From a virus: a stretch of 38,383 bases of DNA. Below the pieces are notes generated by a model. That model ran no database searches, was not told the origin of the DNA, and saw only the letters and a program-made list of their open reading frames with translations. Each line of letters begins with the position of its first letter. Positions within the stretch are counted from its first letter, which is position 1. Below are positions 1-38,383 of this stretch, piece by piece. The DNA lies in the IMG/VR virus record IMGVR_UViG_3300019468_000034; one strand, given 5' to 3'. Made by a program: the position numbers and the translations under genes.

Positions 1-127
1 CGGAAAACCGTGCAATATAAGAAAGGAAAATAAAAATGGACACATGGACGGTTAATAAGCTAGAACAAATGGGCATAGACCCTAGCACAGCATGTAAGAA
101 ATGCGGCTATGACAACGGAATCGACAA
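1..127. repeat. 127-bp terminal redundancy, exact copy of 38257..38383; indicates circular assembly or a direct terminal repeat (unit length 38,256 bp)
   Basis: Bases 1..127 are identical to 38257..38383 by direct reading. Confidence 0.9.
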
Positions 128-2586: not shown

Positions 2587-3393
2587 ATGTATGTACAAAA
2601 AACGGTAAAAGCAGGACCCGTAATTGAAATCTGCAAATACCACACATCGAGATATAACACGCCGACGATGCCGAGATCCCCAAACAGTAAAAACACATCG
2701 GCCGAGCAATGGAAAGTAAACGAGAAAAATTCAATTCAAAATCTCTATTACCTGATTCTCGAAAATTTCAAAGAGGAAGACATTCGAATCGACCTTACAT
2801 ACAAGGAACCGGAGCCTGGAAAGGAGGAAGCCAAAAATAGGCTAGACAATTTTCTCCGTAAGCTCCGTAGGCTATATCACCGGCTAGGCGAACAATTAAA
2901 ATGGATTGCCACCACAGAATGTAAGGGACACCGAATTCATCATCACCTGCTGATAAATAACATTGGGCTGTCACGAGCCGATTACAAAAAGCTATGGCCA
3001 CACGGAGAAATCCCCTATAAGGCCTTTCGGTTTTATGACGGAAAGCCGGATGATGCAAGAAGGGTTGCCGAATACTTTGTGAAAGAAACAAGAGAAACGT
3101 TTTGCGAAGAAGACGCGATACAAAAATCAAGATACCGGGCAAGTAGGAATCTAAAAAAGCCGGAAATAAAAAAAGAAGTGATAAAAAGTAAGACCTGGAA
3201 AGAGCCGAAAGCTCCGAAAGGATACTACATACAAAAACCGGTGCAGTACGGATACACCGCCTTTGGCTTTCCGTACATGTTCTACCGGATGATAAGGACG
3301 GGTGACGATGACGATCAGATATCTAATCAGAAAAAACCGAGCAGAATATGCTGCCATCGAAGAAGGACGGGAAAATACCCTTTGGGTACATGA
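2587..3393 (+). CDS. candidate rolling-circle replication initiator (HUH endonuclease, Rep-like)
   Basis: Motif-1-like IDLTYK, HUH-like RIHHHLLIN and YxxK-like EYFVKE occur in the expected order. AGAGGT RBS. The C-terminal 40 aa look out of frame. Confidence 0.5.
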   Translation: MYVQKTVKAGPVIEICKYHTSRYNTPTMPRSPNSKNTSAEQWKVNEKNSIQNLYYLILENFKEEDIRIDLTYKEPEPGKEEAKNRLDNFLRKLRRLYHRLGEQLKWIATTECKGHRIHHHLLINNIGLSRADYKKLWPHGEIPYKAFRFYDGKPDDARRVAEYFVKETRETFCEEDAIQKSRYRASRNLKKPEIKKEVIKSKTWKEPKAPKGYYIQKPVQYGYTAFGFPYMFYRMIRTGDDDDQISNQKKPSRICCHRRRTGKYPLGT

Positions 3394-9133: not shown

Positions 9134-9337
9134 ATGTGTGGATTAAAAGGACTGTTCGGAAGTAGTTCATCTCCCGAATTTAAAACGCCGGATCCTACGG
9201 TGCAGGCCGTAAATAACGGCGACCAAGGAACAGCCGATAGCGTTGAAAAACAGCGTAAAAAACGCGGTTTCCAAAGTACGCGCACAGCTGTAGATACGGC
9301 ATTAGGAACAACAAATGGCAAAAACACGCTGGGATAA
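9134..9337 (+). CDS. hypothetical small protein between terminase and portal
   Basis: AAAGGGG RBS. Confidence 0.4.
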   Translation: MCGLKGLFGSSSSPEFKTPDPTVQAVNNGDQGTADSVEKQRKKRGFQSTRTAVDTALGTTNGKNTLG

Positions 9338-9347
9338 GGAGAAAAAT

Positions 9348-11084
9348 ATGCGTAAAGAAGTAGAAACGGCATTAGCTAGAAGCCCGACGAAAAATAAAAA
9401 GACGGTAAAACCGAACACGTGTAAAGATAAAAGAAAACTCGTGCAACGCTTTAACGCCTTGTTTCAAGCTCGTAGGCCCTGGGAAAGGGTATGGAAGTTA
9501 ATCCGTGATTATGAACTTCCCTATGACGGCTTATTCGACGACGACACGGCAGGAAAACCCGTCATACACGATGAAGAAATCTTTACAGGCGTTATTCAAG
9601 AAGCCCGCGATACCTTTGCAGCAGGCGTCCAATCGGGGCTCACACCGCCGTCTAGGCGTTGGTTTAGGTTTGGTATTGGAAATAAAGACCTGGCCGACGA
9701 CACAGGCGTACAGCGGTTCCTAGATACAAGAGCCGATATTATGGAATCGGTCCTTTCGGGCTCAAACTTCTACAATGCCATTCATCAGTGCTACTCGGAA
9801 CTTCCCTTTGGCCAAGCGGCTTTAGGGATTTTTTCACAAGGCGGCACGGTGACATTTGTTCCGTACACCATAGGTACCTATGCCCTGGCGTGTGACGCGA
9901 CAGGGAGAGTCTCAACCTTTGCTAGAAGAGCCAAAATGACCGTAAACCAAATCGTAAAGCAATTTGGATATGACAATTGCCCGATGACCGTTAAGCAGTC
10001 ATACGATAACGGAAGCGGCCACCAAAACTACCATACGGTATGCTGGCTAGTCGAAAAAAACGAGGATAACGACCCAAACAAGCTTAATAACAAAAAGATG
10101 CCGTTTACATCGACATACTGGGTAGAAGACTCAAACGAAGATGAATGCCTGGCGGTTACGGGCTTTGAAGAATGGCCCGTACCCATTGCCCGTTATACCG
10201 TAAAAGGAACAGAAGCCTACGCAACAGGTCCTGGCTGGAACGCTTTGCCGGACGCCAAGATGCTACAACAAATGGAACTTGACGCCATTACGGCCATTGA
10301 AATGGGGGTTAAACCTCCCTTGCAGGTCCCGCCGTCACAAGTGGGGAATATAAACCTCTTCCCCGGAGGTACAACGGCCATAAATGATCCGAATGAAGTT
10401 ATTCGTCCTATCTTCCAAGGACAATTAGCAATCGGAGAACTTGAAGGAAAAATCAAACGTGTGGAAGATAGAGTAAAACGCACGTATTCATCAGACCTCT
10501 TCTTAATGTTAGACCAACTGGATAAAGGCCGCATGACGGCCCAGGAAGTAATGGCAAGAAACCAGGAAAAATTGCAGCAACTAGGACCCGTGGTAGAACG
10601 CCTTCAATACGAGTTCTTAAACCGAATCCTTGAAAGGGTCTACAACATCTTAGATAGAAGCGGTATTTTCCCGGATATCCCGGAAGAGCTGCAAGACATT
10701 GTAGGCGAAGAGTTTAGGATCGAATACATCTCACCGCTTGCCCAAGCTCAAAAGATGAGTGGTCTTACATCGATTGAACAAGGCATCGGCTTTATCGGAC
10801 AAGCCGCACAATTCGACCAGACGGTCCTCGATAAGGTTAACCTTACAGAAGCGGTTGCTAACTACTTAGCACAAGTAGGCGTGCCGGCAGCTATGATCCG
10901 TTCAGATGAAGAAGTTGAGGAAATCCAAAAACAGCGTCAAGAAGCCCAAGCCGCAGCAGAAGCCCAAGCACAGCAACAAGCAGCTATTGCACAAGCTCCT
11001 GACCTTGCAGCCGCTGCTAAAAACGCAACAGAAGCGGCAAATGACGGCAATCCCGCTATGCAAGAATGGCTGGGAATGAGGTAA
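9348..11084 (+). CDS. portal (head-to-tail connector) protein, T7 gp8-like, with an A/Q-rich C-terminus
   Basis: TAAGGAGA lies 7 nt upstream of ATG 9348. Size, position and low-complexity QEAQAAAEAQAQQQAAIAQ tail resemble T7 gp8. Confidence 0.75.
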   Translation: MRKEVETALARSPTKNKKTVKPNTCKDKRKLVQRFNALFQARRPWERVWKLIRDYELPYDGLFDDDTAGKPVIHDEEIFTGVIQEARDTFAAGVQSGLTPPSRRWFRFGIGNKDLADDTGVQRFLDTRADIMESVLSGSNFYNAIHQCYSELPFGQAALGIFSQGGTVTFVPYTIGTYALACDATGRVSTFARRAKMTVNQIVKQFGYDNCPMTVKQSYDNGSGHQNYHTVCWLVEKNEDNDPNKLNNKKMPFTSTYWVEDSNEDECLAVTGFEEWPVPIARYTVKGTEAYATGPGWNALPDAKMLQQMELDAITAIEMGVKPPLQVPPSQVGNINLFPGGTTAINDPNEVIRPIFQGQLAIGELEGKIKRVEDRVKRTYSSDLFLMLDQLDKGRMTAQEVMARNQEKLQQLGPVVERLQYEFLNRILERVYNILDRSGIFPDIPEELQDIVGEEFRIEYISPLAQAQKMSGLTSIEQGIGFIGQAAQFDQTVLDKVNLTEAVANYLAQVGVPAAMIRSDEEVEEIQKQRQEAQAAAEAQAQQQAAIAQAPDLAAAAKNATEAANDGNPAMQEWLGMR

Positions 11085-11086
11085 AA

Positions 11087-11407
11087 ATGCACGAAAAAGA
11101 ACGAAAGACCGCACAACTTATGGAAGAAACCATACGAAGCCAAGACATGGAAGCCTTACGGTACGTTATGGAAAGTCCGTTAGGACGACATTTTATGGCT
11201 CGCCTTTTGGACGCAACAAGAATCTATAGCCCGCTATCGAACGAAACCACACTCTTAGACGAAGGACGAAGGCGTGTAGGCCTTGAATACTTAAAGCTCA
11301 TTCAATCCATGGGCCTTGAAGGAATGAAACTACTTCACCAAATGGAAGAAGAATACGCCGAAAAAAGAATTGAACTTGAAAGGATGAAAACAACATGGAC
11401 CAATTGA
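11087..11407 (+). CDS. hypothetical protein
   Basis: GAGGT upstream of ATG 11087. Confidence 0.45.
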   Translation: MHEKERKTAQLMEETIRSQDMEALRYVMESPLGRHFMARLLDATRIYSPLSNETTLLDEGRRRVGLEYLKLIQSMGLEGMKLLHQMEEEYAEKRIELERMKTTWTN

Positions 11408-12060
11408 AATTAAAATTTGACCTGCAACGATTCGCCGAAGGCCCGGAAAGCCAAGAGGCCGAAGGAACACAAGAACAAGCGACTGATACGAGCGCTAACC
11501 AAGAAGGTAGCGACTCATTTATCGGTAAGGAAACCCAGACCGCCTTAGGTGGTGACGGCGAAAGCACTGCTCCGCAAGTGCCGGAATCGTACGACTTTAC
11601 GACCGTATTAAAAGAAGCGGGCCTTGAAGCGGACGAAAAAATCACCGAAGAATTTACAACGCTCTTAAAGGGCATGGGTGCAACGCAAGAACAGGCAGCC
11701 GGCATGGCAACGTACGGCATTCAGTATGCCCAAGGCGTAGCCGAAGCGGTCGCCAAAAACCTCCAGGAACAATATGTAAGCGAAGTAAAGTCCTGGGGTG
11801 ATGCGGCAAAAGAAGAATTAGGCGGGGCTTATCAAGAAACGCTCGGCAAGGCCGCAATTACAAGAGATTACATTGAACAAAAGATTCCCGGCTTTACACA
11901 GATGTTAAATCTGACAGGGGCCGGCAATCATATAGCTATGATAAAAACCATGGCAGCCTTTGCCGATTTAATCGGTGAAGACCCCGGCAAGATGGGTGGC
12001 GCAGGTACCGCCGCAACCAGTACCGATATGTATCCTCATACGGATTTTTCAAAGTATTAA
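11395..12060 (+). CDS. scaffolding protein (acidic, between portal and capsid)
   Basis: Highly acidic and E/A/Q-rich; in the position of T7 gp9. Confidence 0.55.
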   Translation: MDQLKLKFDLQRFAEGPESQEAEGTQEQATDTSANQEGSDSFIGKETQTALGGDGESTAPQVPESYDFTTVLKEAGLEADEKITEEFTTLLKGMGATQEQAAGMATYGIQYAQGVAEAVAKNLQEQYVSEVKSWGDAAKEELGGAYQETLGKAAITRDYIEQKIPGFTQMLNLTGAGNHIAMIKTMAAFADLIGEDPGKMGGAGTAATSTDMYPHTDFSKY

Positions 12061-12081: not shown

Positions 12082-13080
12082 ATGATTGGAAGCACAGCAT
12101 TAACTTTCTCGGATTTAAGAAAGCGCTTAAATCCCCAGGGCCAATTGGACACGATTATGGAAGTCATGGCCCAGAGCAACCCTATTATGGAAGATATTCC
12201 CTGGATGGAAGGAAACCTTCCCACAGGCAACCAAACAACCGTACGCACGTCATACCCTCATCCGGAATTACGGCGCATTAATGCCGGCGTAAAGCCCGGA
12301 AAATCGACGACAAAGCAAATCATCGACACGTGCTGCTTAATGGAAGCACGCTCGGAAGTCGATGTGAAGCTCGTAAAACTGGCCCCGGATAAACAAGCCT
12401 TCCGCATGTCCGAAGACAAAGCCTATGTCCAGGGCTTTACGGATGATCTCGCTAAGTACATGTTCTACGGCGACACCGACGCAAACCCGGACCAGTTTAA
12501 CGGGTTAAGCATCCGCTACAACACGTTTAAAGGCGACCTCGGCGAAGAAGGCTACCAAGTCGTAAACGCCGGTGGTAAGACAGCCAATAAACAAACCTCC
12601 GCATACATCGTAGACTGGGGCGAAGATGCGGTTGTGGGCATTTATCCGAAAGGCTCTAAAGCAGGCCTTGATATCCAGGACCTCGGAGAAATCGACGCCA
12701 TCGATGCAAACGGCGGTAAATACCGGGCCCTTGCAACACTGTTCGATTGGGATGCGGGACTCGCAGTAAAGAACATCCGTAAAGTTGCAGCCGTCCGCAA
12801 CATCGATTGCAAGGCAGCAGCCGAAGACACAACCTCTGATGCACGCAAGGCATTAGCCGAAAGAATTGTAGTCGCCAAAAACAAAATCATAAACCCGAAA
12901 CGCCCGATTCTGTATGTATCGCCTATGGCATACACAATGCTCGAACTGCATATCGCAGATAAAAACAATGTATATGTAACGCAACAGCAACTCATGCAGG
13001 GTGTTCCGACGCTCTATGTATCGGGCCTTATTGTTAAGAAAAACGACGCATTAACAGAAACTGAACCCGTTATCGCCTAG
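12082..13080 (+). CDS. major capsid protein
   Basis: AAAGGAGAA RBS; 332 aa; follows the scaffold as T7 gp10 does. Confidence 0.7.
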   Translation: MIGSTALTFSDLRKRLNPQGQLDTIMEVMAQSNPIMEDIPWMEGNLPTGNQTTVRTSYPHPELRRINAGVKPGKSTTKQIIDTCCLMEARSEVDVKLVKLAPDKQAFRMSEDKAYVQGFTDDLAKYMFYGDTDANPDQFNGLSIRYNTFKGDLGEEGYQVVNAGGKTANKQTSAYIVDWGEDAVVGIYPKGSKAGLDIQDLGEIDAIDANGGKYRALATLFDWDAGLAVKNIRKVAAVRNIDCKAAAEDTTSDARKALAERIVVAKNKIINPKRPILYVSPMAYTMLELHIADKNNVYVTQQQLMQGVPTLYVSGLIVKKNDALTETEPVIA

Positions 13081-13092
13081 AAAGGAGAAACT

Positions 13093-13443
13093 ATGATATA
13101 CGATGCAGAAAATACGTTCTTCTGGAACGTGAAATTATCCGGTACGTCCGGTACAGGCGAAGTTATTAAAACAGGTAAAGGTGACGCAGGAAGTCCCTTA
13201 ACCTTAGTTGTTAAATTACCCGGCGCCTCGGCAGATTGCACGGTAACGCTTGAAACAGCGGACAACGATAAGATGACAGGGGCTAAAACCTTAGGTACGT
13301 ATACGGCTGAAAAGGGTAAAACCTTAGCTGTTAAGGTACCTTACGGTGACCTCGGCTACCTCCGCTTAAAATGGACGGCAGCCGCAGCTCAATCGGCGGG
13401 CACCATTTCGGCGTCACTTGTAATGGATGCAGACGTACGATAA
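13093..13443 (+). CDS. capsid-associated protein (possible decoration or minor capsid protein)
   Basis: AAAGGAGAA RBS; predicted beta-rich, 116 aa. Confidence 0.5.
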   Translation: MIYDAENTFFWNVKLSGTSGTGEVIKTGKGDAGSPLTLVVKLPGASADCTVTLETADNDKMTGAKTLGTYTAEKGKTLAVKVPYGDLGYLRLKWTAAAAQSAGTISASLVMDADVR

Positions 13444-13600
13444 GCCGGGGATCCCTTTTAAGGATTGCCATAAAGGAAGAAGTTTAAATCAGTTACACGC
13501 AAACGAGTTACGAGCTAAGCTAATTCAAGCCGGTATTGAATACACCGGCAACGAAACCAAAGAGGAACTTGTAAACCTCATTAAAAAACACAAGTTATAA
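13427..13600 (+). CDS. +1-frame ORF carrying a HeH/SAP (Rho_N-like) motif; independent small gene or frameshift extension of 13093..13443
   Basis: SLNQLHANELRAKLIQAGIEYTGNETKEELVNLIKKHKL. No RBS before ATG 13427. Confidence 0.3.
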   Translation: MQTYDKPGIPFKDCHKGRSLNQLHANELRAKLIQAGIEYTGNETKEELVNLIKKHKL

Positions 13601-13607
13601 AGGAAAA

Positions 13608-13638
13608 GGGGACGGTGTTACCGTCCCCGACTTTATTT
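13608..13638 (+). terminator. rho-independent terminator after the capsid module (analogous in position to T7 Tphi)
   Basis: GGGGACGG-TGTTA-CCGTCCCC followed by GACTTTATTT. Confidence 0.6.
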
Positions 13639-13652
13639 AAAAAGGAGAAACC

Positions 13653-14243
13653 ATGACAGACACGGATATTTGCAACATGGCGCTATCGGATTTAGGAAAA
13701 GGCACCATTACCTCAATGAACGATAAAGAAGAAAACGCAAGGGCTTGTAAGCTCTATTACGACCAAACAAGAGAAACGGTACTCCGGGCGTATCCGTGGA
13801 GTTTTGCTCATAGAATTGAAAAGTTAGCCCTTCTTGATAAAGAAGTACCCGGATATGATTTTTGTTACGCATATCCGAAGAATTGCTTAAAAATTAATAA
13901 CATTCGAAATAAACAGATAAACGTACAAGAACACGTCCCGTACGTTATCGTAAATATAGATACAGCCACAAAGGCCATTGCTTGTAATTTACAAGACGCT
14001 TACACCGACTACACTGTGGACGAAAAAGACGTACAGGTTATGGATACCTTGTTTATAAGCGCCTTTACACGTCTACTTGCAGCCAATATGGCTATGCGCC
14101 TTACGGGAAATCCGCAAGCTTATCAAATGCAATATCAGTTATTCCAGGCTATTATTCACGACGCACAATTAAACGACGCAAGAGAAGGCCAAAGGGATGC
14201 GGTATATCATAGTAATTACGCCAACACTCGGAGGGTACGATGA
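13653..14243 (+). CDS. tail tubular protein A (T7 gp11-like adaptor)
   Basis: 196 aa, the same length as T7 gp11. N-terminal pattern ALSDLGKGTITSM...ENARAC...RAYPWSF parallels gp11 ILASIGEPPVSTL...ANARRI...QSRGWTF. Confidence 0.7.
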   Translation: MTDTDICNMALSDLGKGTITSMNDKEENARACKLYYDQTRETVLRAYPWSFAHRIEKLALLDKEVPGYDFCYAYPKNCLKINNIRNKQINVQEHVPYVIVNIDTATKAIACNLQDAYTDYTVDEKDVQVMDTLFISAFTRLLAANMAMRLTGNPQAYQMQYQLFQAIIHDAQLNDAREGQRDAVYHSNYANTRRVR

Positions 14244-17044
14244 ACATATATCTCATACAACCGTCGTTTGCAGCCGGCGAAATATCGCCGTACGTCGCAA
14301 ACCGTGTGGATTTAGATAAATACAAATCAGCCCTTCTAACAGCCCAAAACCTCGCCATTCGTCCGTTCGGCGGGTGCTATCGTAGACAAGGCTCGGAATT
14401 TATAGGACAGGTTAAATACGACGATAGGCCGACAGCCCTTGTCGCCTTTAATGCCGGAATAGATGATGCCTATCTATTAGAAGTAGGCTATCGGTATATC
14501 CGTATCTGGGAAGACGGGAAATACACGGAAACAGAGTTATCCACACCGTACGATAATGTGGATAACTTACAATTCACCCAATCCGCCGATACTATGTTTA
14601 TTTGTTCCGGAAATTATCCGATCCAATGCCTTCAAAGAACGGCTATGGGCTGGGCGTTTAAAGAGTACGAGATAACAGAACCTTATTACGATTCAGCGAC
14701 ACAAGCGGCAAATAAAGAAACGTCGTTTGTAGCACCTGGAACATACACTTTTACGCCGCAAGTAACGGGTAAATACACCGTAGAAATCATAGGGGCCGGT
14801 GGAGGTGGTGCCGGCACTGGAGTACAACATTACTCATATACACATGGGGGCGATGGACAAGAAGGCCAAGGGACCATAGAATTACAAGGCGGGAATGGTG
14901 GATCCGGCGAAAAGAAAATAACAATAGACACGCTAACCGCAGGACAAACATATTCCGTAACAGTAGGCGCTGGCGGAAAAGGCGGCAAATCCCAATATTC
15001 CCGGCGAGGCGACGCACACCCGACAGACGGAACGGGCGGAGGAAAATCATCCTTTAATAACACCGAAGCCAAAGGTGGCGGCGGTGGAATTGCAAGTAAG
15101 CCCAATGGAAAAAACCAAAGAATAGAAGGAAAAGACGGAATCTCGCATCAAGGAGGAGCCAAAGGCGGTGCTGCCGGCATATGTAAAGATGTTCAAAAGA
15201 ATCCCTCCCAAATAACAGACGGGAAAGACGGCCAAAATGGATACGTAAGAATCACCTTCTCCGGAAACAACGAATTAAAGCCCTCGACCACATCGGGTAA
15301 TGACGTTACCATTACGGCCACGAAAGACACGTTCACGCCGGGCATGGTGAACAGTCACATAAAATTAACCCAGCAAGCTGAAAACCAATCAGAACAAATT
15401 GAAATACAGGCCTCTTCCATTACAGAAGAAACCAAGTCTATACGAGTGGGAAAGGCCTGGAAGATTACAACTCACGGCACATGGAAGGGTAAGGTCACCG
15501 TTTATCACTCGGACGATAATAAGACCTGGCAAGAATATAGAAGCTATAAGTCAAACAACGACCAGAACTTCACAGAATCAGGGACCGTAACAACACCTAC
15601 CTGGATGAAAGCAGTAGCTGTAACGGATGCGGATAACGGAAGCGGCAAACTTACCGTAGACTTTTCCAGAAATCCCTATTCAAACGACGGCACCGCTAAA
15701 ATTACAGAAGTCGTTTCATCGACGGAAGTTAAAGCCTCGGTTATTACCGATTTTGCTAACACCGACAAAACCCAGGTATACGCACTAAGTAGCTGGAACG
15801 ACGATAACGGATATCCTAAAATGGCGTGCTTTTTCCAAGATAGATTAGTCTTAGCAGCCACAAAAAAAGAGCCCTACTCTATATGGATGAGTAGAACAGG
15901 GGATTATCCGAACTTTGGAATCGAAAAAGTAGACGGAGGAGTAACGGACGACTCGGCTATTAAAGCAGACCTTATCACTCGTAACGGCTTTGAGATTTTG
16001 CACCTGGTGCCGGCAAAAGACCTGGTTATATTAACAACAGGTAACGAATGGATTATAGAAGGCGCAAGCGTCATCACACCGGCTAAAATTAATCCCAGGC
16101 CGCAAACCATGCGCGGATCTAATTCATGCCCTCCGCAGCACATCGGTAATCGTATAGTACATGTACAGCGAAGTGGAAAGACCGTAAGAGACCTTGGCTA
16201 TCAATATGATGCGGATAATTATAACGGCGACAACTTAACGCTTTTGGCGACGCATTTAACAGAAGGCCATAAGCTGGTATCCTCGGCATACATTCAAGAG
16301 CCCAATAGCACCTTGTATTACGTCCGTGACGACGGAGCGCTGCTTTCACTGGCCTTTATTAAAGAGCAAAATGTATTTGCCTGGTCGCATCAAAAGACAG
16401 ACGGTAAATACAAAAAGGTAGCGTCCATTCCCAACGGCTCAAACGACGTGTTATACGTAACCGTAGAAAGAAACGGTAAAACCTATATAGAACGGTTTAA
16501 TCCCGATATAGAGGCGGCCGTATACATGGATTCGTACATTATAGGAAGCGGTAGTAGCATAGAAATACCACACCTTATAGGAAAAACGGTACAAGTCTTG
16601 GCCGACGGAACAAGGATGCAAGATGCGGTAGTACCAGAAAATGGCTTAGTGGCCTTTGGCCAGTCGTTTTCAGATATTACAATTGGCCTTGCCTACGAAA
16701 CAAGAATTAAGCAGCCGGGCCCTGATATAGGATTAAAAGAAGGCACTATGCAGGCTAGAATCTCAAAGATTAATACCGTCGTGTTAAGAGTAGAAAAATC
16801 CTACGGTGGCCATATCGGATACACATTTAAAGATAAGGATATGAACGAGCTCCGATACGAAGATTACGAAACGCTGGAAACAGGCGACATCGTGCAGCAA
16901 ATGCCGATAGCCGATATCGGCAGTAATACCAAAAACCATATCTGCATCAAGCACGACGAACCCTTCCCGTTTGAATTAAACGCAATCATAAGAGAGGTAA
17001 GTATTGATGGCGGCATTGTCAAAAGTTACAACGGAGAAATTTAA
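14240..17044 (+). CDS. tail tubular protein B / nozzle (gp12-like) with a roughly 160-aa glycine-rich insertion
   Basis: Position after the gp11-like gene, 934 aa, N-terminal AGEISPY...RRQG resembles the gp12 N-terminus. Gly-rich block at nt 14789..15270. Confidence 0.6.
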   Translation: MNIYLIQPSFAAGEISPYVANRVDLDKYKSALLTAQNLAIRPFGGCYRRQGSEFIGQVKYDDRPTALVAFNAGIDDAYLLEVGYRYIRIWEDGKYTETELSTPYDNVDNLQFTQSADTMFICSGNYPIQCLQRTAMGWAFKEYEITEPYYDSATQAANKETSFVAPGTYTFTPQVTGKYTVEIIGAGGGGAGTGVQHYSYTHGGDGQEGQGTIELQGGNGGSGEKKITIDTLTAGQTYSVTVGAGGKGGKSQYSRRGDAHPTDGTGGGKSSFNNTEAKGGGGGIASKPNGKNQRIEGKDGISHQGGAKGGAAGICKDVQKNPSQITDGKDGQNGYVRITFSGNNELKPSTTSGNDVTITATKDTFTPGMVNSHIKLTQQAENQSEQIEIQASSITEETKSIRVGKAWKITTHGTWKGKVTVYHSDDNKTWQEYRSYKSNNDQNFTESGTVTTPTWMKAVAVTDADNGSGKLTVDFSRNPYSNDGTAKITEVVSSTEVKASVITDFANTDKTQVYALSSWNDDNGYPKMACFFQDRLVLAATKKEPYSIWMSRTGDYPNFGIEKVDGGVTDDSAIKADLITRNGFEILHLVPAKDLVILTTGNEWIIEGASVITPAKINPRPQTMRGSNSCPPQHIGNRIVHVQRSGKTVRDLGYQYDADNYNGDNLTLLATHLTEGHKLVSSAYIQEPNSTLYYVRDDGALLSLAFIKEQNVFAWSHQKTDGKYKKVASIPNGSNDVLYVTVERNGKTYIERFNPDIEAAVYMDSYIIGSGSSIEIPHLIGKTVQVLADGTRMQDAVVPENGLVAFGQSFSDITIGLAYETRIKQPGPDIGLKEGTMQARISKINTVVLRVEKSYGGHIGYTFKDKDMNELRYEDYETLETGDIVQQMPIADIGSNTKNHICIKHDEPFPFELNAIIREVSIDGGIVKSYNGEI

Positions 17045-17483
17045 CAAGAAAGATAAAAAGCACCTCCAGGCCGTAAGGTACATAGAAGAACATTTACGGC
17101 CGATTGATAAAAAAGAACTACAAGGGGCTTGTACATCCGTTACCAAATGCGCCATACATGAATTTTGCGACAACTTTTTGGCGTTCGGCGAAAAGGGAGA
17201 ACCTATTGCCATATATGGGATCGTAAAATATCCGATAGACGGCCGTCACGCCGTGTGGATGGTAGGAACAACGGAAATCAAAAACTACAAAAAAGAATTA
17301 ATCACCATGGGATTTGAAGAAATCAGTAGATTCATCAAGGAATACGGACCTATAACAAACTATATAAGCATAGATAACAACGAATCACGGCGTTGGCTAC
17401 TAAAAGCCGGCGCCGGTTTTGGTACGCCGTTTAATGAAAACGGTATAACGTGGCAACAATTCGTAATAGGGAGGAATGAATAA
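17007..17483 (+). CDS. internal virion protein, gp13-position, hypothetical
   Basis: GAGGT lies 8 nt upstream of ATG 17007. Confidence 0.4.
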   Translation: MAALSKVTTEKFNKKDKKHLQAVRYIEEHLRPIDKKELQGACTSVTKCAIHEFCDNFLAFGEKGEPIAIYGIVKYPIDGRHAVWMVGTTEIKNYKKELITMGFEEISRFIKEYGPITNYISIDNNESRRWLLKAGAGFGTPFNENGITWQQFVIGRNE

Positions 17484-29700: not shown

Positions 29701-29810
29701 TCCAAGAACTTATTACCACAACGATATTTGATAAGCGCTACAAGACACACGAAGAACGGGTACGCCAAGACAAGAAAAAGGCTAATGAACAAAAAAAGAA
29801 AGGAAAATAA
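20757..29810 (+). CDS. giant virion protein (3,017 aa) in the gp16 position; internally duplicated module plus an HExxH zincin motif; candidate polyvalent ejected effector
   Basis: AAAGGAG RBS; uninterrupted 9,054-nt ORF. Two QRAWHG...HGWGxY modules at aa 1085 and 1364. HEAAH at aa 1636. Confidence 0.7.
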   Translation: MAEYRFDNFKIDANNPTGETPSSDVLNLNNDNLGSQEGMAQANAELQEKYNSINQQVASGQIKQKPQMNYQHQESNWTPQQEENDGIGTKIYNGLLAIGNWEVNSAMDVYRNLFNPNARAMNQAKTYADTLGLSAQFLMDNPDAYNTAEEIYNKKMAARFLGGVKFSTAALDDMYPELAEIRQKDPVSAAMALQDYEDVKNTRSIFEVVKDAFNSGSDMVKLSDAQMRAYNGESIDSVRPDVDKLTDELRAYQEPNKYERTLYDTIQQLTIMGTQAVRATKRAAQGAALGMATSAAAAGGAAATVIGAEAAPIILLAGATTGAAYGMRVGMFEQFEQQSAAARYWELMNNRKGEYSRNHALVDSTVTGVVNGAIELGLMEVGYKPITKAWGGQAAKSILNNAAARMAIIDAGKESIAKLSAQAAMKQFGRSTAAELAEEGAQQASEDLMDNAEYYLYKKGAPHTTTEIIGNAVDAMVQAVPAVVGMGAMGAITHGVGNYRSMRAIAAIKNEDWKQEYRRTVEQQTIEALMANKAQNKTAQKNPEVYKNVVQEQARLAGVQNMYVDAQELSKTDKGVDVLNDMVNRGIITGEQVDKSISTGADIVIPTGTFAQLADESVDTDTLMRATTMAKNGVHRAALEEKAKRVEAIREELANLAQNKKDVLSKELMEEHFSNADDITRTAAESVIYKNPYDLNKSYKEALADARKEYEDALGFDAYWNYKPQGVGIMYTDEESRQTGRGIRVSNNDYWYQDMYKKLGRKATREEMLDIAYEDQMKELQTLAPEAADEFAQNANSLKAKYESLQGLKDKFEELAKSDYAVKQSLTKEGYEVYNEVVNRLQDGSEKSKLAANENAFIYARMAESWARIRNEYGDTAYTAKDFMAEHAVNIGYENIKNTYTQAMFDVRRVGVNNLEDFLKRVKARRSAGEVANKIMFTGKFGVIYTEAQVVHAMTEHNGHILTTEQMEDIEKHIGIMHHVAISRKKELTNFNGVPVLASINGEKGDYYVVLEFNKDGKIWFKTGMPVSTDSAKSIIKQKIEEGSAYRLTHNTQGRTGLNTSSIRIDTVAEKLKSVNNKEKDTFDQRAWHGSGMDFNEFNLEKALTGAGDMVHGWGIYTAKNKKTAQAYKKHAQSKGLPSYLYEVDIPKDENLLVEEKRYQEQTPKIQEKLARTISDLPDSQQKIFWEKLLRNEMRRLPEETEALSDLDKAKDKVKQLEVASKGLENTDKPKLKEKIAIKHLKALGYIDKQIKDRNFMQTEKEKEEKVLAAVKKEAEKAKASIQERKDSILEAAIQNPKDALKRSVGTGKEIYRYLSASLDSMEEASQQLNKNGIEGISYYDSKDGDCVVVFSDKAVNIIDQYKQRAWHGTPYDFDTFDLSGIGSGEGNQAHGWGLYFAQNREVSEAYKEILGDKGSTVELNGEVWTVNESGDWETTGKTAKYGEAIGYALDALEEHGTKDAAINILQKDLKEGRFRGAYIAEAQKAVNILRQGEAKGHKGGRLLEAEIPDTDVLLDEQKLFKEQPEKVKNALSKLISNTGEGQLSRRAFKNATGKSIYEMLSNLYGDDKKASLKLNEFGVKGITYKGTQDERCYVVFDDKAIEIRNKYDQEIKASYNSATGAIHLFDGADQSSFVHEAAHMYLTEMSKMAVDEAAPKGLMEDWNTIQNWAAYKPEDIKDYEGTAREKEFKSYAKAIEDARKSGDVIAIRAAEERWMQERFARGFERYIAEGKAPTQALQSAFRKFKSWLISIYRDLKKLGKEPPEDVKRVMDRMIATDDEIEAWAKAKELNAWDKKGFSGDLTGSEGDMIKRWAEDAKEKAKERVLKELMRQEENQWRTDLENSLEKERIDYEKHLVDENPIYGQELVYRETGEQFKEDYLRTIGYDSKESFESAIEKAGGPLEERSKAFMENRRKEYEEMMPTSEDFKNAADAELASTNAQMRLSQLEAYAIKRKVNGYVAEAVKAMRELDALDGKSEEEITAGIKEILGVDDEAAKKGRQVALVLAKNEEIQKLKERLKDAKEKDKEYRALAREELASAKAALKEAMRGLNTARDITAGSYTKTLQVAREELSKMTVAEATIWRHWEIKAKQEGNNADKLMAAGAFEEAATAKGNSLKYYCMSRAAKDNQEYVRTKLEGSTGRVDMQQEAMDGIKGMVKRISRRENPVRLDPNSRYMIQHLAYITGITEKDGIKPLNEKGESVGINWEKVYGDLNPDYAMDKETAPNPDKIVAPWLRILAESKERKDYNEMQMDQFQDMVEAMNVLYKASRRDYEATTIKDRNGKVISQEEAALKLVQAIGVDNSFNPLQDSNNQTDAKSKAKSLAKDALLYLTKAETIFDRFGGDWMQLVYEPINQGANKELTMRQEACKTFSKIYNMYSLEEWQAMRSDRVFTIGLTTNFTREQLICMALNWGNKEGRKRVLATINKSAKNEADVIDEYTMQSVLESSLTEKDWNFIEAVWEQLDSYWAERNKVQENLYGQGLGKVQALPFNINGRQIKGGYYPIVYDPKLSIRASDLAADDIVKQALSGSSTFGIGMGSTKSRVSEVKGQQLALRLDVWPQAVTEAIHHIAMREAATDVYKLITHPAVQQAVQQKYGMETYNIIRQWSKDVWKTDVQKADIINRTLEQMRKNSAFAVMAMRTGTAILNVLNVFPMMHQIGKINTLKAITGFGLGFYKGTDTYARNRQFVFDKSPMMRDRMNTIDRDMQQDMKLEVGQDTSLIRERATHAKEKFNRFGYWFITETDLMFSMALWKHGYDESMRKQIEAGMTDVKQMEQNAISDADTNVRAVFGSGQVKDQVAMQRKNTLVGQLTPFYSYSSTVLNALIKAGYRVKDHGDYMALINATLYWVVLQTLAETVYRSAVAGELDDPDKMLRRLGITTVRNVDQGIPVVRDALEGVMNHFLLGSDSNNSPLAITAIDELVKAAQAAGNEKKDFTDVGRSLSRVGNRTWKFSDTLSDGFWNLVRFSLVDTDRSVQELITTTIFDKRYKTHEERVRQDKKKANEQKKKGK

Positions 29811-34898: not shown

Positions 34899-35960
34899 TC
34901 ATTTAAAAATATTTGCGACCCTGTCCGCTGCCCGAAGTCGCATCTCGTCCGTAAAATGAATGTATGTGTTAATAACGGTATTTACGTCATCGCCTAAAAG
35001 ACTTGCAACGGTTTTTACGTCAAGGCCGTTCGCTAAAAGCGTAGTCGCGTATGTGTGTCTCATATCGTGAATCGATTTTCCACTTACAACCGTCCATATA
35101 ACATTATTAACCCGGCTGGAATGATTACCTTTAGCAGGAAACAATACAAGGCCGTCGCATTGCTTTTTATAGTCCTTTAATATCTTCAACAACACCGGCG
35201 GGACGGGAAGTATACGATAACTGTTTTTAGTCTTTAGTTGATTAAACCCAAACTTATTTTGCCCGGAACGAACAAACTGCTTATTAATATTAATGGTAGA
35301 CACTGAAAAATCAATATCATCCCATGTTAAGCCTAGAATTTCACTATAGCGACAGCCGGTATATCTGGCAACAGAAACCAAAGCGTAGTAATACGAAGAA
35401 TAGCCTTTTAGAAAATCCATCAACCTGTCCAGATCATCCTCGGTAAACACCCTAATTTTTCTCCGTTCGCTTTTCGCCTTTTCAACCAAATCGCACGGGT
35501 TAAGGGCAATAGCACCATAGGGTCTTTTTGCGTAATTAAAAATAGTCTTTAGGCGTTGGAGATATAAATTTCTTGTTCCGGGAGAAAGGCAACCGGAGTT
35601 AAAAACCGAAACGATTTGAGAATACGAAATGTTGCGGATAGGAAGCGGTGCTAATTCCTGGAAGAATCGCAAAGAGTGCTCGTAAGTAAGACGGGTATTA
35701 TAGGTGAGATTCGACTTCTCGCGAAGGTATAAAGAATAGAAGTCACCAAGCGTGGCATCGCGGAGATCCTCGGAGGTGAAAACGGAAACTGTTTCTTTTA
35801 ACTCGGCGATAATATCCTGGCCATATTCTTTAGCCGCTCTTTGCGTTTTAAAGCCTTGCTTTGACTTTTGACGCCACTTACGACCGTCTTTATAACTAAC
35901 AATAACCTGATAGCCGTTATCCTTTTTTCGTATTGTAATATTTGCCTGCATTTTTAACAC
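34899..35960 (-). CDS. int: tyrosine site-specific integrase
   Basis: HDMRHTYAT and the C-terminal catalytic Tyr region VINTYIHF. N-terminal arm-binding-like domain. 353 aa. Confidence 0.9.
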   Translation of the reverse strand: MLKMQANITIRKKDNGYQVIVSYKDGRKWRQKSKQGFKTQRAAKEYGQDIIAELKETVSVFTSEDLRDATLGDFYSLYLREKSNLTYNTRLTYEHSLRFFQELAPLPIRNISYSQIVSVFNSGCLSPGTRNLYLQRLKTIFNYAKRPYGAIALNPCDLVEKAKSERRKIRVFTEDDLDRLMDFLKGYSSYYYALVSVARYTGCRYSEILGLTWDDIDFSVSTININKQFVRSGQNKFGFNQLKTKNSYRILPVPPVLLKILKDYKKQCDGLVLFPAKGNHSSRVNNVIWTVVSGKSIHDMRHTYATTLLANGLDVKTVASLLGDDVNTVINTYIHFTDEMRLRAADRVANIFK

Positions 35961-38253: not shown

Positions 38254-38269
38254 GCACGGAAAACCGTGC
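38254..38269. promoter_or_regulatory. fourth operator-like dyad GCACGGAAAACCGTGC immediately after the cro stop codon (continues into window position 1)
   Basis: Perfect 6-bp arms; the same motif as 38001..38014. Confidence 0.45.
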
Positions 38270-38383
38270 AATATAAGAAAGGAAAATAAAAATGGACACA
38301 TGGACGGTTAATAAGCTAGAACAAATGGGCATAGACCCTAGCACAGCATGTAAGAAATGCGGCTATGACAACGGAATCGACAA
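38257..38383. repeat. second copy of the 127-bp terminal redundancy (equals 1..127)
   Basis: Exact identity to the window start. Confidence 0.9.

What the first reader, a model, noticed from the sequence alone, without database searches (positions are those of the whole stretch)
13424..13600. A HeH/SAP (Rho_N-like) motif is encoded in the +1 frame overlapping the end of the capsid-associated gene
The frame-2 ORF that overlaps the last 20 nt of 13093..13443 encodes ...SLNQLHANELRAKLIQAGIEYTGNETKEELVNLIKKHKL, a typical about 35-aa helix-extension-helix DNA or peptidoglycan-binding motif common at the C-termini of phage capsid-module proteins. ATG 13427 has no RBS. Expression could therefore occur by a +1 programmed frameshift that adds a HeH tail to a fraction of the 116-aa protein (compare T7 10A/10B), or by coupled reinitiation. 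A terminator follows at 13608..13638.
Basis: partly seen in the sequence, partly recalled or inferred. Interest (0 to 1): 0.55.

Follow-up and report, generated by a model that had tools for sequence, protein, structure and literature searches.

The report
Separate small HeH gene, not frameshift
The helix-extension-helix motif is real, but it belongs to a conserved stand-alone 57-residue gene whose start codon sits inside the end of the capsid cement gene; it is probably translated by ribosomes restarting after they finish that gene, not by a programmed frameshift, so this is an ordinary gene arrangement.

Summary
An ORF at 13427..13600 (open from 13424) encodes a 57-aa protein with a HeH/SAP-type motif. 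It overlaps the end of the 116-aa gene 13093..13443, has no Shine-Dalgarno sequence, and is followed by a strong hairpin terminator at 13608..13638.

The frameshift interpretation does not hold:
- The 20-nt overlap has no slippery site and no stimulatory structure.
- None of about 150 family representatives or 65 distinct junctions carries a genuine fusion. The one apparent fusion is a false intron in a eukaryotic gene model.
- In relatives the HeH ORF is always a separate 43-57-aa gene. Its start lies from 16 nt before the end of the upstream stop codon to 7 nt after it (ATGA, TAATG, GTGA, TTGA and others).
- Its frame relative to the upstream gene varies (+2, +1 or 0).

The window's layout, an ATG 14 nt before the stop in the +1 frame, recurs in two distant Veillonellaceae lineages and arose at least twice.

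The ORF is under purifying selection (pN/pS 0.20).

Function is only inferred: a small accessory head-module protein, possibly a partner of the Bbp16-type cement protein. Small HeH/LEM proteins next to capsid genes are already seen in other phages. Interest is low.

The parts
13093..13443 (+). Gene for a 116-aa capsid cement protein of the Bbp16 family. It is the upstream partner of the coupled pair. It has a strong SD (AAAGGAG) and ends ...VMDADVR-TAA.
   Evidence: hhalign of the family alignment A1 against phiV10 p11 (itself Pfam Bbp16, 2.5e-48) gives 95.5% probability and E 1.6e-8. phrog_427 scores 5.9e-11. The direct Pfam Bbp16 match is weak, E 0.045. The gene lies directly after the GP7-type major capsid gene 12082..13080.
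13427..13600 (+). Stand-alone gene for a 57-aa HeH/SAP-fold microprotein. It starts at ATG 13427 and stops at TAA 13598-13600, in the +1 frame relative to the cement gene.
   Evidence: Supported by ORF and translation, Pfam, purifying selection with pN/pS 0.19-0.20 and conservation as a separate gene in relatives. Public gene callers already list it as a 57-aa protein.
13427..13443 (+). The 17-nt start/stop overlap, which is the coupling junction. ATG 13427 is formed by the conserved Asp-Ala codons GAT-G of the cement gene. The cement stop TAA lies at 13441-13443. There is no SD upstream.
   Evidence: SD analysis is. The same ATG-14 nt-stop layout occurs in L091 and L095. No polymorphism was seen here in 23 unique variants. 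No significant RNA structure was found.
13484..13591 (+). The HeH/SAP motif, residues 20-55, with invariant R18, N26, E27, R29, G36 and L48 across the family. The preceding residues 1-19 form a low-confidence, probably flexible N-terminal arm that carries a conserved GIPF-K-D...GR(K/R)L pattern.
   Evidence: The Pfam stretch covers residues 20-55. The 10 lineages are aligned in A2. The AF2 model has helices at 25-35 and 45-54, with pLDDT 80-84 in the motif and 50-56 in the N-terminus. Foldseek returns SAP-type hits at rmsd 1.1-1.9 A over 33-38 residues.
13608..13638 (+). Intrinsic-terminator-like hairpin (13608-13628) plus a T-rich tail. It closes the head-gene block before the tail genes.
   Evidence: Found by the pattern scan and by folding: -20.9 kcal/mol, z -3.8, 0 of 200 shuffles as stable. 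A hairpin is kept at this place in relatives with different stem sequences (alignment; judged by eye, not counted).
13642..13655 (+). SD (AAGGAG) and ATG 13653 of the next gene, a 196-aa tail or adaptor protein. It shows that ordinary genes in this operon carry their own RBS.
   Evidence: SD duplex energy is -8.9 kcal/mol. phrog_394 'tail protein' scores 2.8e-46.

Best explanation
Region 13427..13600 is an independent late gene of a temperate, epsilon15/BPP-1-like short-tailed phage, probably of Veillonellaceae. It encodes a 57-aa (about 6.5 kDa) protein with a flexible N-terminal arm and a C-terminal helix-extension-helix (SAP/LEM/Rho_N-like) motif.

How it is expressed. The gene has no Shine-Dalgarno sequence, and its start codon lies inside the last codons of the Bbp16-type cement gene. 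Translation is therefore most likely coupled. A ribosome that terminates at UAA 13441-13443 restarts at the nearest AUG, 14 nt upstream at 13427. The output would then be a fixed, probably sub-stoichiometric fraction of the abundant cement protein.

How the layout arose. The nearest outgroup and most relatives use the classic 1-nt (TAATG) or 4-nt (ATGA) overlaps. Compared with the nearest outgroup, the window clade differs by one base in length at the junction. That puts the ORF in frame with a latent ATG supplied by the conserved GAT-G (Asp-Ala/Val) codons.

What is shown and what is inferred:
- Shown: the gene, its conservation and selection, the HeH-type motif, the absence of an SD, the variable frame, and tight start-stop proximity in all lineages.
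- Inferred: reinitiation as the mechanism.
- Inferred with low confidence: the function. The protein may be an accessory head-module protein that acts with the capsid or cement protein through its N-terminal arm, while its HeH motif binds nucleic acid or another partner.
For: Separate gene:
- In 65 distinct junctions the HeH ORF is always separate.
- Its start lies from 16 nt before the end of the upstream stop codon to 7 nt after it: ATGA, GTGA, TTGA, TAATG, TGATG, TAA-A-ATG, TAA|ATG, or an ATG 14 nt before the stop.
- The relative frame is +2, +1 or 0, so only proximity is conserved.
- Close pairs switch layout: L088 TAATG against L089 GTGA at 98% identity, and L066 against L090 at 83%.
- The window's layout recurs in L091 and L095, whose upstream proteins are 46% and 37% identical to the window's. 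It arose at least twice.

Selection: pN/pS is 0.19-0.20 with pS 0.22, similar to the cement gene's pS of 0.27.

No SD: -1.7 kcal/mol, against -7 to -11 for most genes in the window. A second SD-less long overlap exists at 11066/11084.

Precedent:
- Coupling by termination-reinitiation is typical of -4 and -1 overlaps and falls off steeply with distance.
- Such pairs are enriched for subunits of heteromeric complexes.
- Restart at an upstream AUG after termination was shown for the 34-nt coat/lysis overlap of phage fr. All three points are from PMC10666635.

HeH fold.

Capsid context of HeH motifs elsewhere:
- The Lj771 major head protein ends in a HeH-like motif after an acidic linker.
- S. 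agalactiae phage vB_Sags-UPM1 has an 84-aa HeH/LEM protein between the capsid and connector genes (PMC10221047).
- FluMu gp35 (PDB 2OUT) has a matching C-terminal motif, E 0.01.
Against: - There are no expression data of any kind, so the start codon and the coupling are inferred from sequence.
- A 17-nt overlap is longer than the common -1, -4 and -8 classes. Experiments show coupling drops 40-80% at about 14 nt of separation, measured for downstream spacing (PMC10666635), so restart here may be inefficient.
- Four related lineages lack the gene altogether (L076, L078, L082/83), so it is dispensable.
- Nothing ties the protein physically to the capsid. The HeH motif could instead act on host or phage nucleic acid in the cell.
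- The HeH, SAP and Rho_N Pfam models score below their cut-offs, and the Foldseek E-values are not significant for this 57-residue model.
Confidence: 0.8

Rival explanations
1. Programmed +1 (or -2) ribosomal frameshift within 13424-13443 makes a fraction of cement protein with a C-terminal HeH tail of about 19 kDa, as with T7 10A/10B.
For: - The ORF has no SD, and the +1 frame opens 20 nt before the cement stop.
- In BPP-1 the C-terminus of the cement protein is exposed on the capsid surface (PMC3863775), so a tail could be tolerated sterically.
- A HeH-like motif is fused in frame to a capsid protein in Lj771.
Against: - The overlap A-ATG-GAT-GCA-GAC-GTA-CGA-TAA-G has no homopolymeric or re-pairing site. 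A P-site CGA cannot re-pair on GAU. There is no SD-like stimulator upstream (read directly).
- There is no downstream structure (z -0.1).
- The three lineages with the +1 layout share the ATG but no slippery sequence: ATGCAGACGTACGATAAG, ATGTCGACGTCAGATAAG and ATGTTGTACTCAAATAAA.
- Most relatives place the ORF in the +2 or 0 frame with its own start at the stop codon.
- The family search found no genuine fusion. P0062 is a false intron, and the P0108 extension is not HeH.
Confidence: 0.03
2. The gene is separate, but it is translated by independent, SD-less de novo initiation at AUG 13427. For example, an S1-dependent or unstructured-region start, helped only by upstream ribosomes melting the mRNA. 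True termination-reinitiation would not be involved.
For: - The region around the start is not significantly structured.
- Some genes in the window also lack a clear SD: 184, 11066, 33213 and 34271.
- Coupling efficiency falls steeply with distance in native pairs (PMC10666635).
Against: - In every lineage the start stays from 16 nt before the end of the upstream stop codon to 7 nt after it, despite repeated rearrangement of the junction. Selection for proximity is hard to explain without dependence on the terminating ribosome.
- Most genes of this phage use strong SDs.
Confidence: 0.13
3. In the window clade the ORF is a decaying remnant. The ancestral start at the TAATG junction is no longer present, and the ORF is not expressed.
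For: - The nearest outgroup (L031, 80-81% identical) starts at TAATG, and that ATG is absent from the window clade.
- The gene is absent from four related lineages.
- L094 has a damaged C-terminus.
Against: - The ORF is intact in all close variants that cover it: 23 unique sequences, and more.
- There are 41 polymorphic sites, mostly at codon positions 1 and 3, with conservative replacements.
- pN/pS is 0.20 in frame, against 0.63 and 1.82 out of frame.
- The same upstream-ATG layout is kept in two distant lineages.
Confidence: 0.03

Closest known systems
Translationally coupled overlapping gene pairs (termination-reinitiation): ATGA/TAATG pairs, trpB-trpA, and the coat/lysis overlap of RNA phage fr
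   Same: The genes are co-directional and the downstream start lacks an SD and lies next to or inside the end of the upstream gene. Relatives use the canonical -4 and -1 overlaps. Restart at an AUG upstream of the stop has precedent in phage fr, with a 34-nt overlap (PMC10666635).
   Different: The window's overlap is 17 nt, outside the common -1, -4 and -8 classes. Coupling has not been measured here.
Small HeH/LEM/SAP (Rho_N-like) proteins or tails in phage head modules: the 84-aa HeH/LEM protein of S. agalactiae phage vB_Sags-UPM1, FluMu gp35 (PDB 2OUT), and the C-terminus of the Lj771 major head protein
   Same: A motif of about 35 aa of the same type, encoded at or just after the capsid genes and before the connector or tail genes. 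Identity to the Lj771 tail is 50% over 28 residues.
   Different: The phage lineages and neighbouring genes are different. The proteins differ in length and N-terminal part. Matches are motif-level only, E 0.01 to 0.4. None of these proteins has a demonstrated function in the sources I could read.
T7 gene 10A/10B programmed frameshift
   Same: It also involves a capsid-module gene with extra coding capacity in another frame at its 3' end.
   Different: T7 uses a -1 shift at a slippery site to extend the capsid protein (my own knowledge). Here there is no slippery site, the frame relation is not conserved, no fusions occur, and a conserved start codon is present.
BPP-1 Bbp16 cement protein / epsilon15-type head module
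   Same: The upstream gene belongs to the Bbp16 family and follows a GP7-type major capsid gene, and the portal is of the Head-tail_con type. Bbp16 is an essential jellyroll cement protein with an externally exposed C-terminus (PMC3863775).
   Different: Cultured relatives (phiV10, KL4) carry other small genes in the slot between the Bbp16-like gene and the tail genes, namely epsilon15 gp9- and gp10-like genes. Pfam and hhalign detect no HeH gene there.

Membership tests
HeH/SAP/LEM-type helix-extension-helix motif | Sequence match to a curated model of the motif | tested here: met
   Pfam Endonuc-dimeris scores 23.5 bits against a 22-bit cut-off, E 6.1e-5, over residues 20-55. A precomputed PF09124 hit exists on close homolog P0012. 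The HeH, SAP and Rho_N models themselves are below their cut-offs, E 0.014-0.05.
HeH/SAP/LEM-type helix-extension-helix motif | Two short helices joined by an extended linker, superposable on solved SAP or HeH domains | tested here: inconclusive
   The AF2 model has helices at 25-35 and 45-54 with pLDDT about 80. The top PDB matches are the T4 endonuclease VII C-terminal domain, CDNF/MANF SAP, Rho N-terminus, Tho1 SAP and FAN1 SAP, at rmsd 1.1-1.9 A over 33-38 residues. All E-values are 0.2 or higher.
HeH/SAP/LEM-type helix-extension-helix motif | Binds nucleic acid or a defined partner | not testable with these tools
   This needs EMSA or pull-down experiments.
Programmed ribosomal frameshift product (T7 10A/10B, prfB type) | Slippery or re-pairing site in the overlap, with a stimulator | tested here: not met
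   Sequence 13424-13443 has no such site. There is no significant structure and no SD-like element upstream.
Programmed ribosomal frameshift product (T7 10A/10B, prfB type) | Frame relation and shift site conserved among homologs | tested here: not met
   The frames +2, +1 and 0 all occur. The +1 lineages share no shift sequence.
Programmed ribosomal frameshift product (T7 10A/10B, prfB type) | Homologs with the two parts fused in frame | tested here: not met
   Of the 150 best of 231 family representatives, nearly all are 97-151 aa long and match end to end. P0062 is an artefact and the P0108 tail is not HeH. There are 0 fusions among 65 junctions.
Translationally coupled (termination-reinitiation) gene pair | Co-directional genes with the start codon overlapping or within a few nt of the upstream stop | tested here: met
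   The window has a 17-nt overlap. Relatives range from -4 and -1 overlaps to a +6 gap.
Translationally coupled (termination-reinitiation) gene pair | Downstream gene lacks its own ribosome-binding site | tested here: met
   The anti-SD duplex energy is -1.7 kcal/mol, against -7 to -11 for most genes. By eye, the junctions of relatives show no SD, except weak GGTG(A) in L091 and L095.
Translationally coupled (termination-reinitiation) gene pair | Downstream translation depends on upstream translation and termination | not testable with these tools
   This needs reporter constructs with premature or moved stop codons.
Bbp16 cement-protein family (upstream gene) | Homology to Bbp16 and position directly after a GP7-type major capsid gene | tested here: met
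   hhalign gives 95.5% probability and E 1.6e-8 against phiV10 p11, a strong Pfam Bbp16 member. The direct Pfam hit is below its cut-off, E 0.045. The major capsid protein matches Pfam GP7 at 1.4e-100.
Intrinsic (Rho-independent) terminator | G+C-rich hairpin followed by a T-rich run, more stable than chance | tested here: met
   The T run is interrupted (GACTTTATTT), and termination activity was not tested.

The most novel reading that the evidence does not exclude
The HeH microprotein is a capsid-surface accessory subunit. It would be made in fixed proportion to the cement protein by coupling, and would dock through its conserved N-terminal arm next to the cement protein, whose C-terminus is external in BPP-1. 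That would display a SAP/HeH nucleic-acid- or polymer-binding motif on the outside of the head. The same function would be supplied in other phages by a HeH tail fused to the major head protein (Lj771) or by separate HeH/LEM genes after the capsid gene. If so, these would form a widespread and unrecognised class of capsid-displayed binding modules.
Probability: 0.15. Interest if true: 0.5.

Novelty: new member of a known kind. Interest (0 to 1): 0.2.

Why it matters
Practically, it matters for annotation. The 57-aa ORF should be called as a gene, with ATG 13427 as its start, and the cement gene should not be annotated with a frameshift.

Two smaller points have some general interest:
- The junction shows how start-stop coupling is kept while the actual layout turns over quickly. 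The ATGA, TAATG and upstream-ATG layouts interconvert, and the conserved Asp codon GAT followed by G offers a ready-made start in the +1 frame.
- HeH/LEM-type motifs recur at or just after capsid genes in unrelated phages without a known role. A single experiment on any of them would inform many genomes.

Tried and rejected
- DNA search of the head region against 50,697 phage records found no match. tblastn with the 57-aa protein found only the weak Lj771 motif hit.
- The word-indexed protein search with the 57-aa protein returned only close 57-aa homologs, so distant homologs had to be read from loci.
- P0062, 147 aa, looked like a true cement-HeH fusion. It is a singleton from a nematode genome assembly (Cylicocyclus nassatus). 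The gene model is 498 nt long for a 147-aa product, and the DNA shows a stop codon, a 6-nt spacer and a separate ATG. The fusion is therefore a false GT..AG intron on a contaminating phage contig.
- P0108, 196 aa, has a C-terminal extension that is acidic and proline-rich, not HeH.
- By eye, the C-terminus of phiV10 p12 (epsilon15 gp9-like) resembled a HeH motif. Pfam and hhalign against the family alignment gave nothing, so I dropped it.
- Folding of 13390-13510 showed no structure beyond chance, so there is no frameshift stimulator and no start-masking hairpin.
- A literature search for HI1506 (FluMu gp35) found nothing in the library. General searches on HeH and capsid gave only the S. agalactiae phage table.
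- tRNA and Rfam scans of the window found nothing.
- In one search my slice of the capsid gene was out of frame, so I discarded that line.

Full report
**Setting.** The window is a complete, circularly assembled phage genome of about 38.3 kb; bases 1-127 repeat at 38257-38383. It carries a tyrosine integrase at 34899-35960 on the minus strand. The morphogenesis block is of the epsilon15/BPP-1 type:
- portal, 9315-11084, Pfam Head-tail_con, 5e-139;
- a small protein, 11066-11407, matching phrog_528 (unknown function); the syntenic gene in relatives carries Pfam Phage_Bbp19;
- a scaffold/protease-like protein, 11395-12060;
- major capsid protein, 12082-13080, Pfam GP7, 1.4e-100;
- the 116-aa gene, 13093-13443;
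- the ORF in question;
- tail and adaptor genes from 13653 onward.

Relatives sit in contigs of Megasphaera, Dialister, Negativicoccus and other Veillonellaceae genomes and in human-gut metagenomes. The host is therefore probably a member of the Negativicutes; this is an inference.

- The +1 frame opens at 13424 and closes at TAA 13598-13600.
- The motif is of the HeH/SAP type. Pfam Endonuc-dimeris (the C-terminal domain of T4 endonuclease VII) scores above its cut-off at E 6.1e-5, and HeH, SAP and Rho_N score just below theirs.
- PHROG hits all fall on the C-terminal motif of unrelated proteins.
- A profile of ten lineages finds the C-terminal motif of FluMu gp35, PDB 2OUT, at E 0.01.
- The AlphaFold2 model shows helices 25-35 and 45-54 with an extended linker and a low-confidence N-terminal arm. 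Its nearest solved folds are SAP-type domains, at non-significant E-values.
- ATG 13427 has no SD: -1.7 kcal/mol, against -7 to -11 for most genes here.
- The terminator-like hairpin at 13608-13628 with a T-rich tail is real and far more stable than shuffled sequence.

**The upstream gene is a cement protein.** The direct Pfam match to Bbp16 is weak (E 0.045). However, the family profile aligns end to end with phiV10 p11, a strong Bbp16 member, at 95.5% probability. Bbp16 is the essential jellyroll cement protein of BPP-1, and its C-terminus is exposed on the outside of the head (PMC3863775).

**The ORF is a real, selected gene.**
- It is intact in all close relatives that cover it, whose cement proteins are 95-99% identical to the window's.
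- There are 41 polymorphic sites, with 16, 5 and 20 at codon positions 1, 2 and 3.
- Amino-acid replacements are conservative.
- pN/pS is 0.20 in frame, against 0.63 and 1.82 in the other two frames.
- Its synonymous diversity (0.22) matches that of the cement gene (0.27, pN/pS 0.07), so it evolves with its neighbour under somewhat weaker constraint.

**Comparative anatomy decides the mechanism.** I read the junction in 65 distinct sequences, from IMG/VR, metagenomes, genomes and Logan/ENA contigs. The HeH ORF is always a separate gene of 43-57 codons. Its start sits at the end of the cement gene in one of these layouts:

| Layout | Loci |
|---|---|
| ATGA, GTGA or TTGA (4-nt overlap) | L033/34, L069-75, L081, L084, L089, L122, L125 |
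| TAATG or TGATG (1-nt overlap) | L031, L032, L079/80, L088, L090 |
| Start 0-6 nt after the stop | L066-68, L077, L085, L094 |
| ATG 14 nt before the stop (17-nt overlap) | window clade, L091, L095 |

- The frame of the HeH ORF relative to the cement gene is accordingly +2, +1 or 0.
- Four lineages lack the gene (L076, L078, L082/83).
- Layouts switch between close relatives: L088 against L089 at 98% identity, and L066 against L090 at 83%.
- The window's layout arose at least twice. The window clade nests among TAATG and ATGA types, and its nearest outgroup L031 (80-81% identical) uses TAATG. L091 and L095 lie in a different clade.
- In all three 17-nt-overlap lineages the ATG is supplied by the conserved Asp codon GAT followed by G (Ala or Val) of the cement protein's C-terminal ...(V/L)xD(A/V)D... 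motif.
- Compared with L031, the window clade differs by one base in length just after the stop and lacks the TAATG start. That brings the ORF into frame with this latent ATG and adds five residues, MQTYDKP in place of MD.

**Why not a frameshift.**
- The overlap (A-ATG-GAT-GCA-GAC-GTA-CGA-TAA-G) has no slippery or re-pairing site and no SD-like stimulator.
- The surrounding RNA is no more structured than shuffles.
- The three +1 lineages share the ATG but not the intervening sequence.
- A profile search of 1.84 billion representatives found 231 family members. The best 150 are almost all 97-151 aa long and match end to end.
- The only apparent cement-HeH fusion, P0062, is a eukaryotic gene model with a false intron across the stop codon, on a phage contig in a nematode assembly.

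**Most likely mechanism.** What evolution keeps is not a frame but the nearness of an SD-less start to the upstream stop. That is the signature of coupling by termination-reinitiation.
- In native E. coli and Haloferax pairs, this coupling is efficient at -4 and -1 overlaps and drops 40-80% at about 14 nt. Such pairs are 4.5- to 8-fold enriched for subunits of heteromeric complexes.
- Restart at an AUG upstream of the stop was shown for the 34-nt coat/lysis overlap of phage fr (PMC10666635).
- I therefore infer that ribosomes finishing the abundant cement protein restart at 13427, giving a lower but proportional amount of the HeH protein.
- The same genome has a second SD-less long overlap, with ATG 11066 lying 19 nt inside the portal gene.
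- De novo SD-less initiation cannot be excluded without experiments.

**Function (inferred, low confidence).** The following points bear on it:
- The gene is the last one of the head block, before a terminator.
- It is coupled to the cement gene.
- It is dispensable in some lineages.
- It has a conserved N-terminal arm (GIPF-K-D...GR-K/R-L) ahead of the motif.
- HeH-type motifs occur in the same place in unrelated phages, either as separate genes or fused to a capsid protein.

Together these suggest an accessory, head-associated role, with the arm docking on a capsid component and the HeH motif binding nucleic acid or another partner. Nothing here shows that the protein is in the virion.

**Verdict.** The frameshift reading is rejected and the coupled-reinitiation reading is supported. 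This is a new member of known kinds: a small HeH/SAP protein in a translationally coupled overlapping pair. The protein is already listed in public databases as a 57-aa hypothetical protein with automated names such as 'Thymopoietin protein'. Interest is low.

Noticed in passing
window 1-127 and 38257-38383: A perfect 127-nt direct repeat at the two ends of the window. This is the usual sign of a circular contig from a k=127 assembly, so the unique genome is 38,256 bp and complete.
   Followed up: partly
window 11066-11084: A second long, SD-less start/stop overlap. ATG 11066 of the 113-aa gene (phrog_528; the syntenic gene in relatives carries Pfam Phage_Bbp19) lies 19 nt inside the end of the portal gene (9315-11084). 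Its anti-SD energy is only -1.7 kcal/mol, the same type of junction as at 13427.
   Followed up: partly
window 20757-29810: A single 3017-aa ORF covers about 24% of the genome, after T7 gp14-like (17483-18118) and other internal-virion-type genes. It has a sub-threshold Pfam match to ART-PolyVal (ADP-ribosyltransferase of polyvalent proteins) at residues 1367-1419, E 9.9e-6, 26.8 bits against a 31.2-bit cut-off. It is possibly an injected polyvalent protein.
   Followed up: no
L085 4001-4498 (GCA_958299035.1, contig CATQJL010000265.1): A 17.7-kb contig with a related phage-type Bbp16-like/HeH gene pair sits in the genome assembly of the nematode Cylicocyclus nassatus. A eukaryotic gene model spliced a false GT..AG intron across the cement gene's stop codon, creating a spurious cement-HeH fusion protein in NCBI and UniRef (P0062).
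   Followed up: yes
window 34899-35960 (-); loci L088-L095, L099, L115, L123: The window carries a tyrosine integrase with an Arm-DNA-binding domain. Relatives lie in long (100-490 kb) bacterial contigs and in Megasphaera, Dialister, Negativicoccus and other Veillonellaceae MAGs. This is a temperate phage group of gut and oral Negativicutes with no close cultured relative; blastn against 50,697 phage records found nothing.
   Followed up: partly
window 13608-13628 and the same place in L001, L008, L017, L031: The terminator stem differs in sequence between relatives while a hairpin is kept. For example, L001 has a longer G-rich stem and L031 a different stem. This looks like compensatory change, but it was judged by eye only and not counted.
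   Followed up: no
window 14240-17044: The 934-aa tail protein (phrog_376) carries an inserted glycine-rich segment at about residues 166-344 (Pfam Gly_rich_2, below its cut-off), between its N-terminal part and the conserved tail-protein body.
   Followed up: no
L076, L078, L082, L083 (about 2840-3020): Four related lineages have no HeH gene after the cement gene. Instead, a short non-coding stretch leads to the next gene. L094 has a HeH ORF with a scrambled C-terminus, from either decay or an assembly indel.
   Followed up: partly
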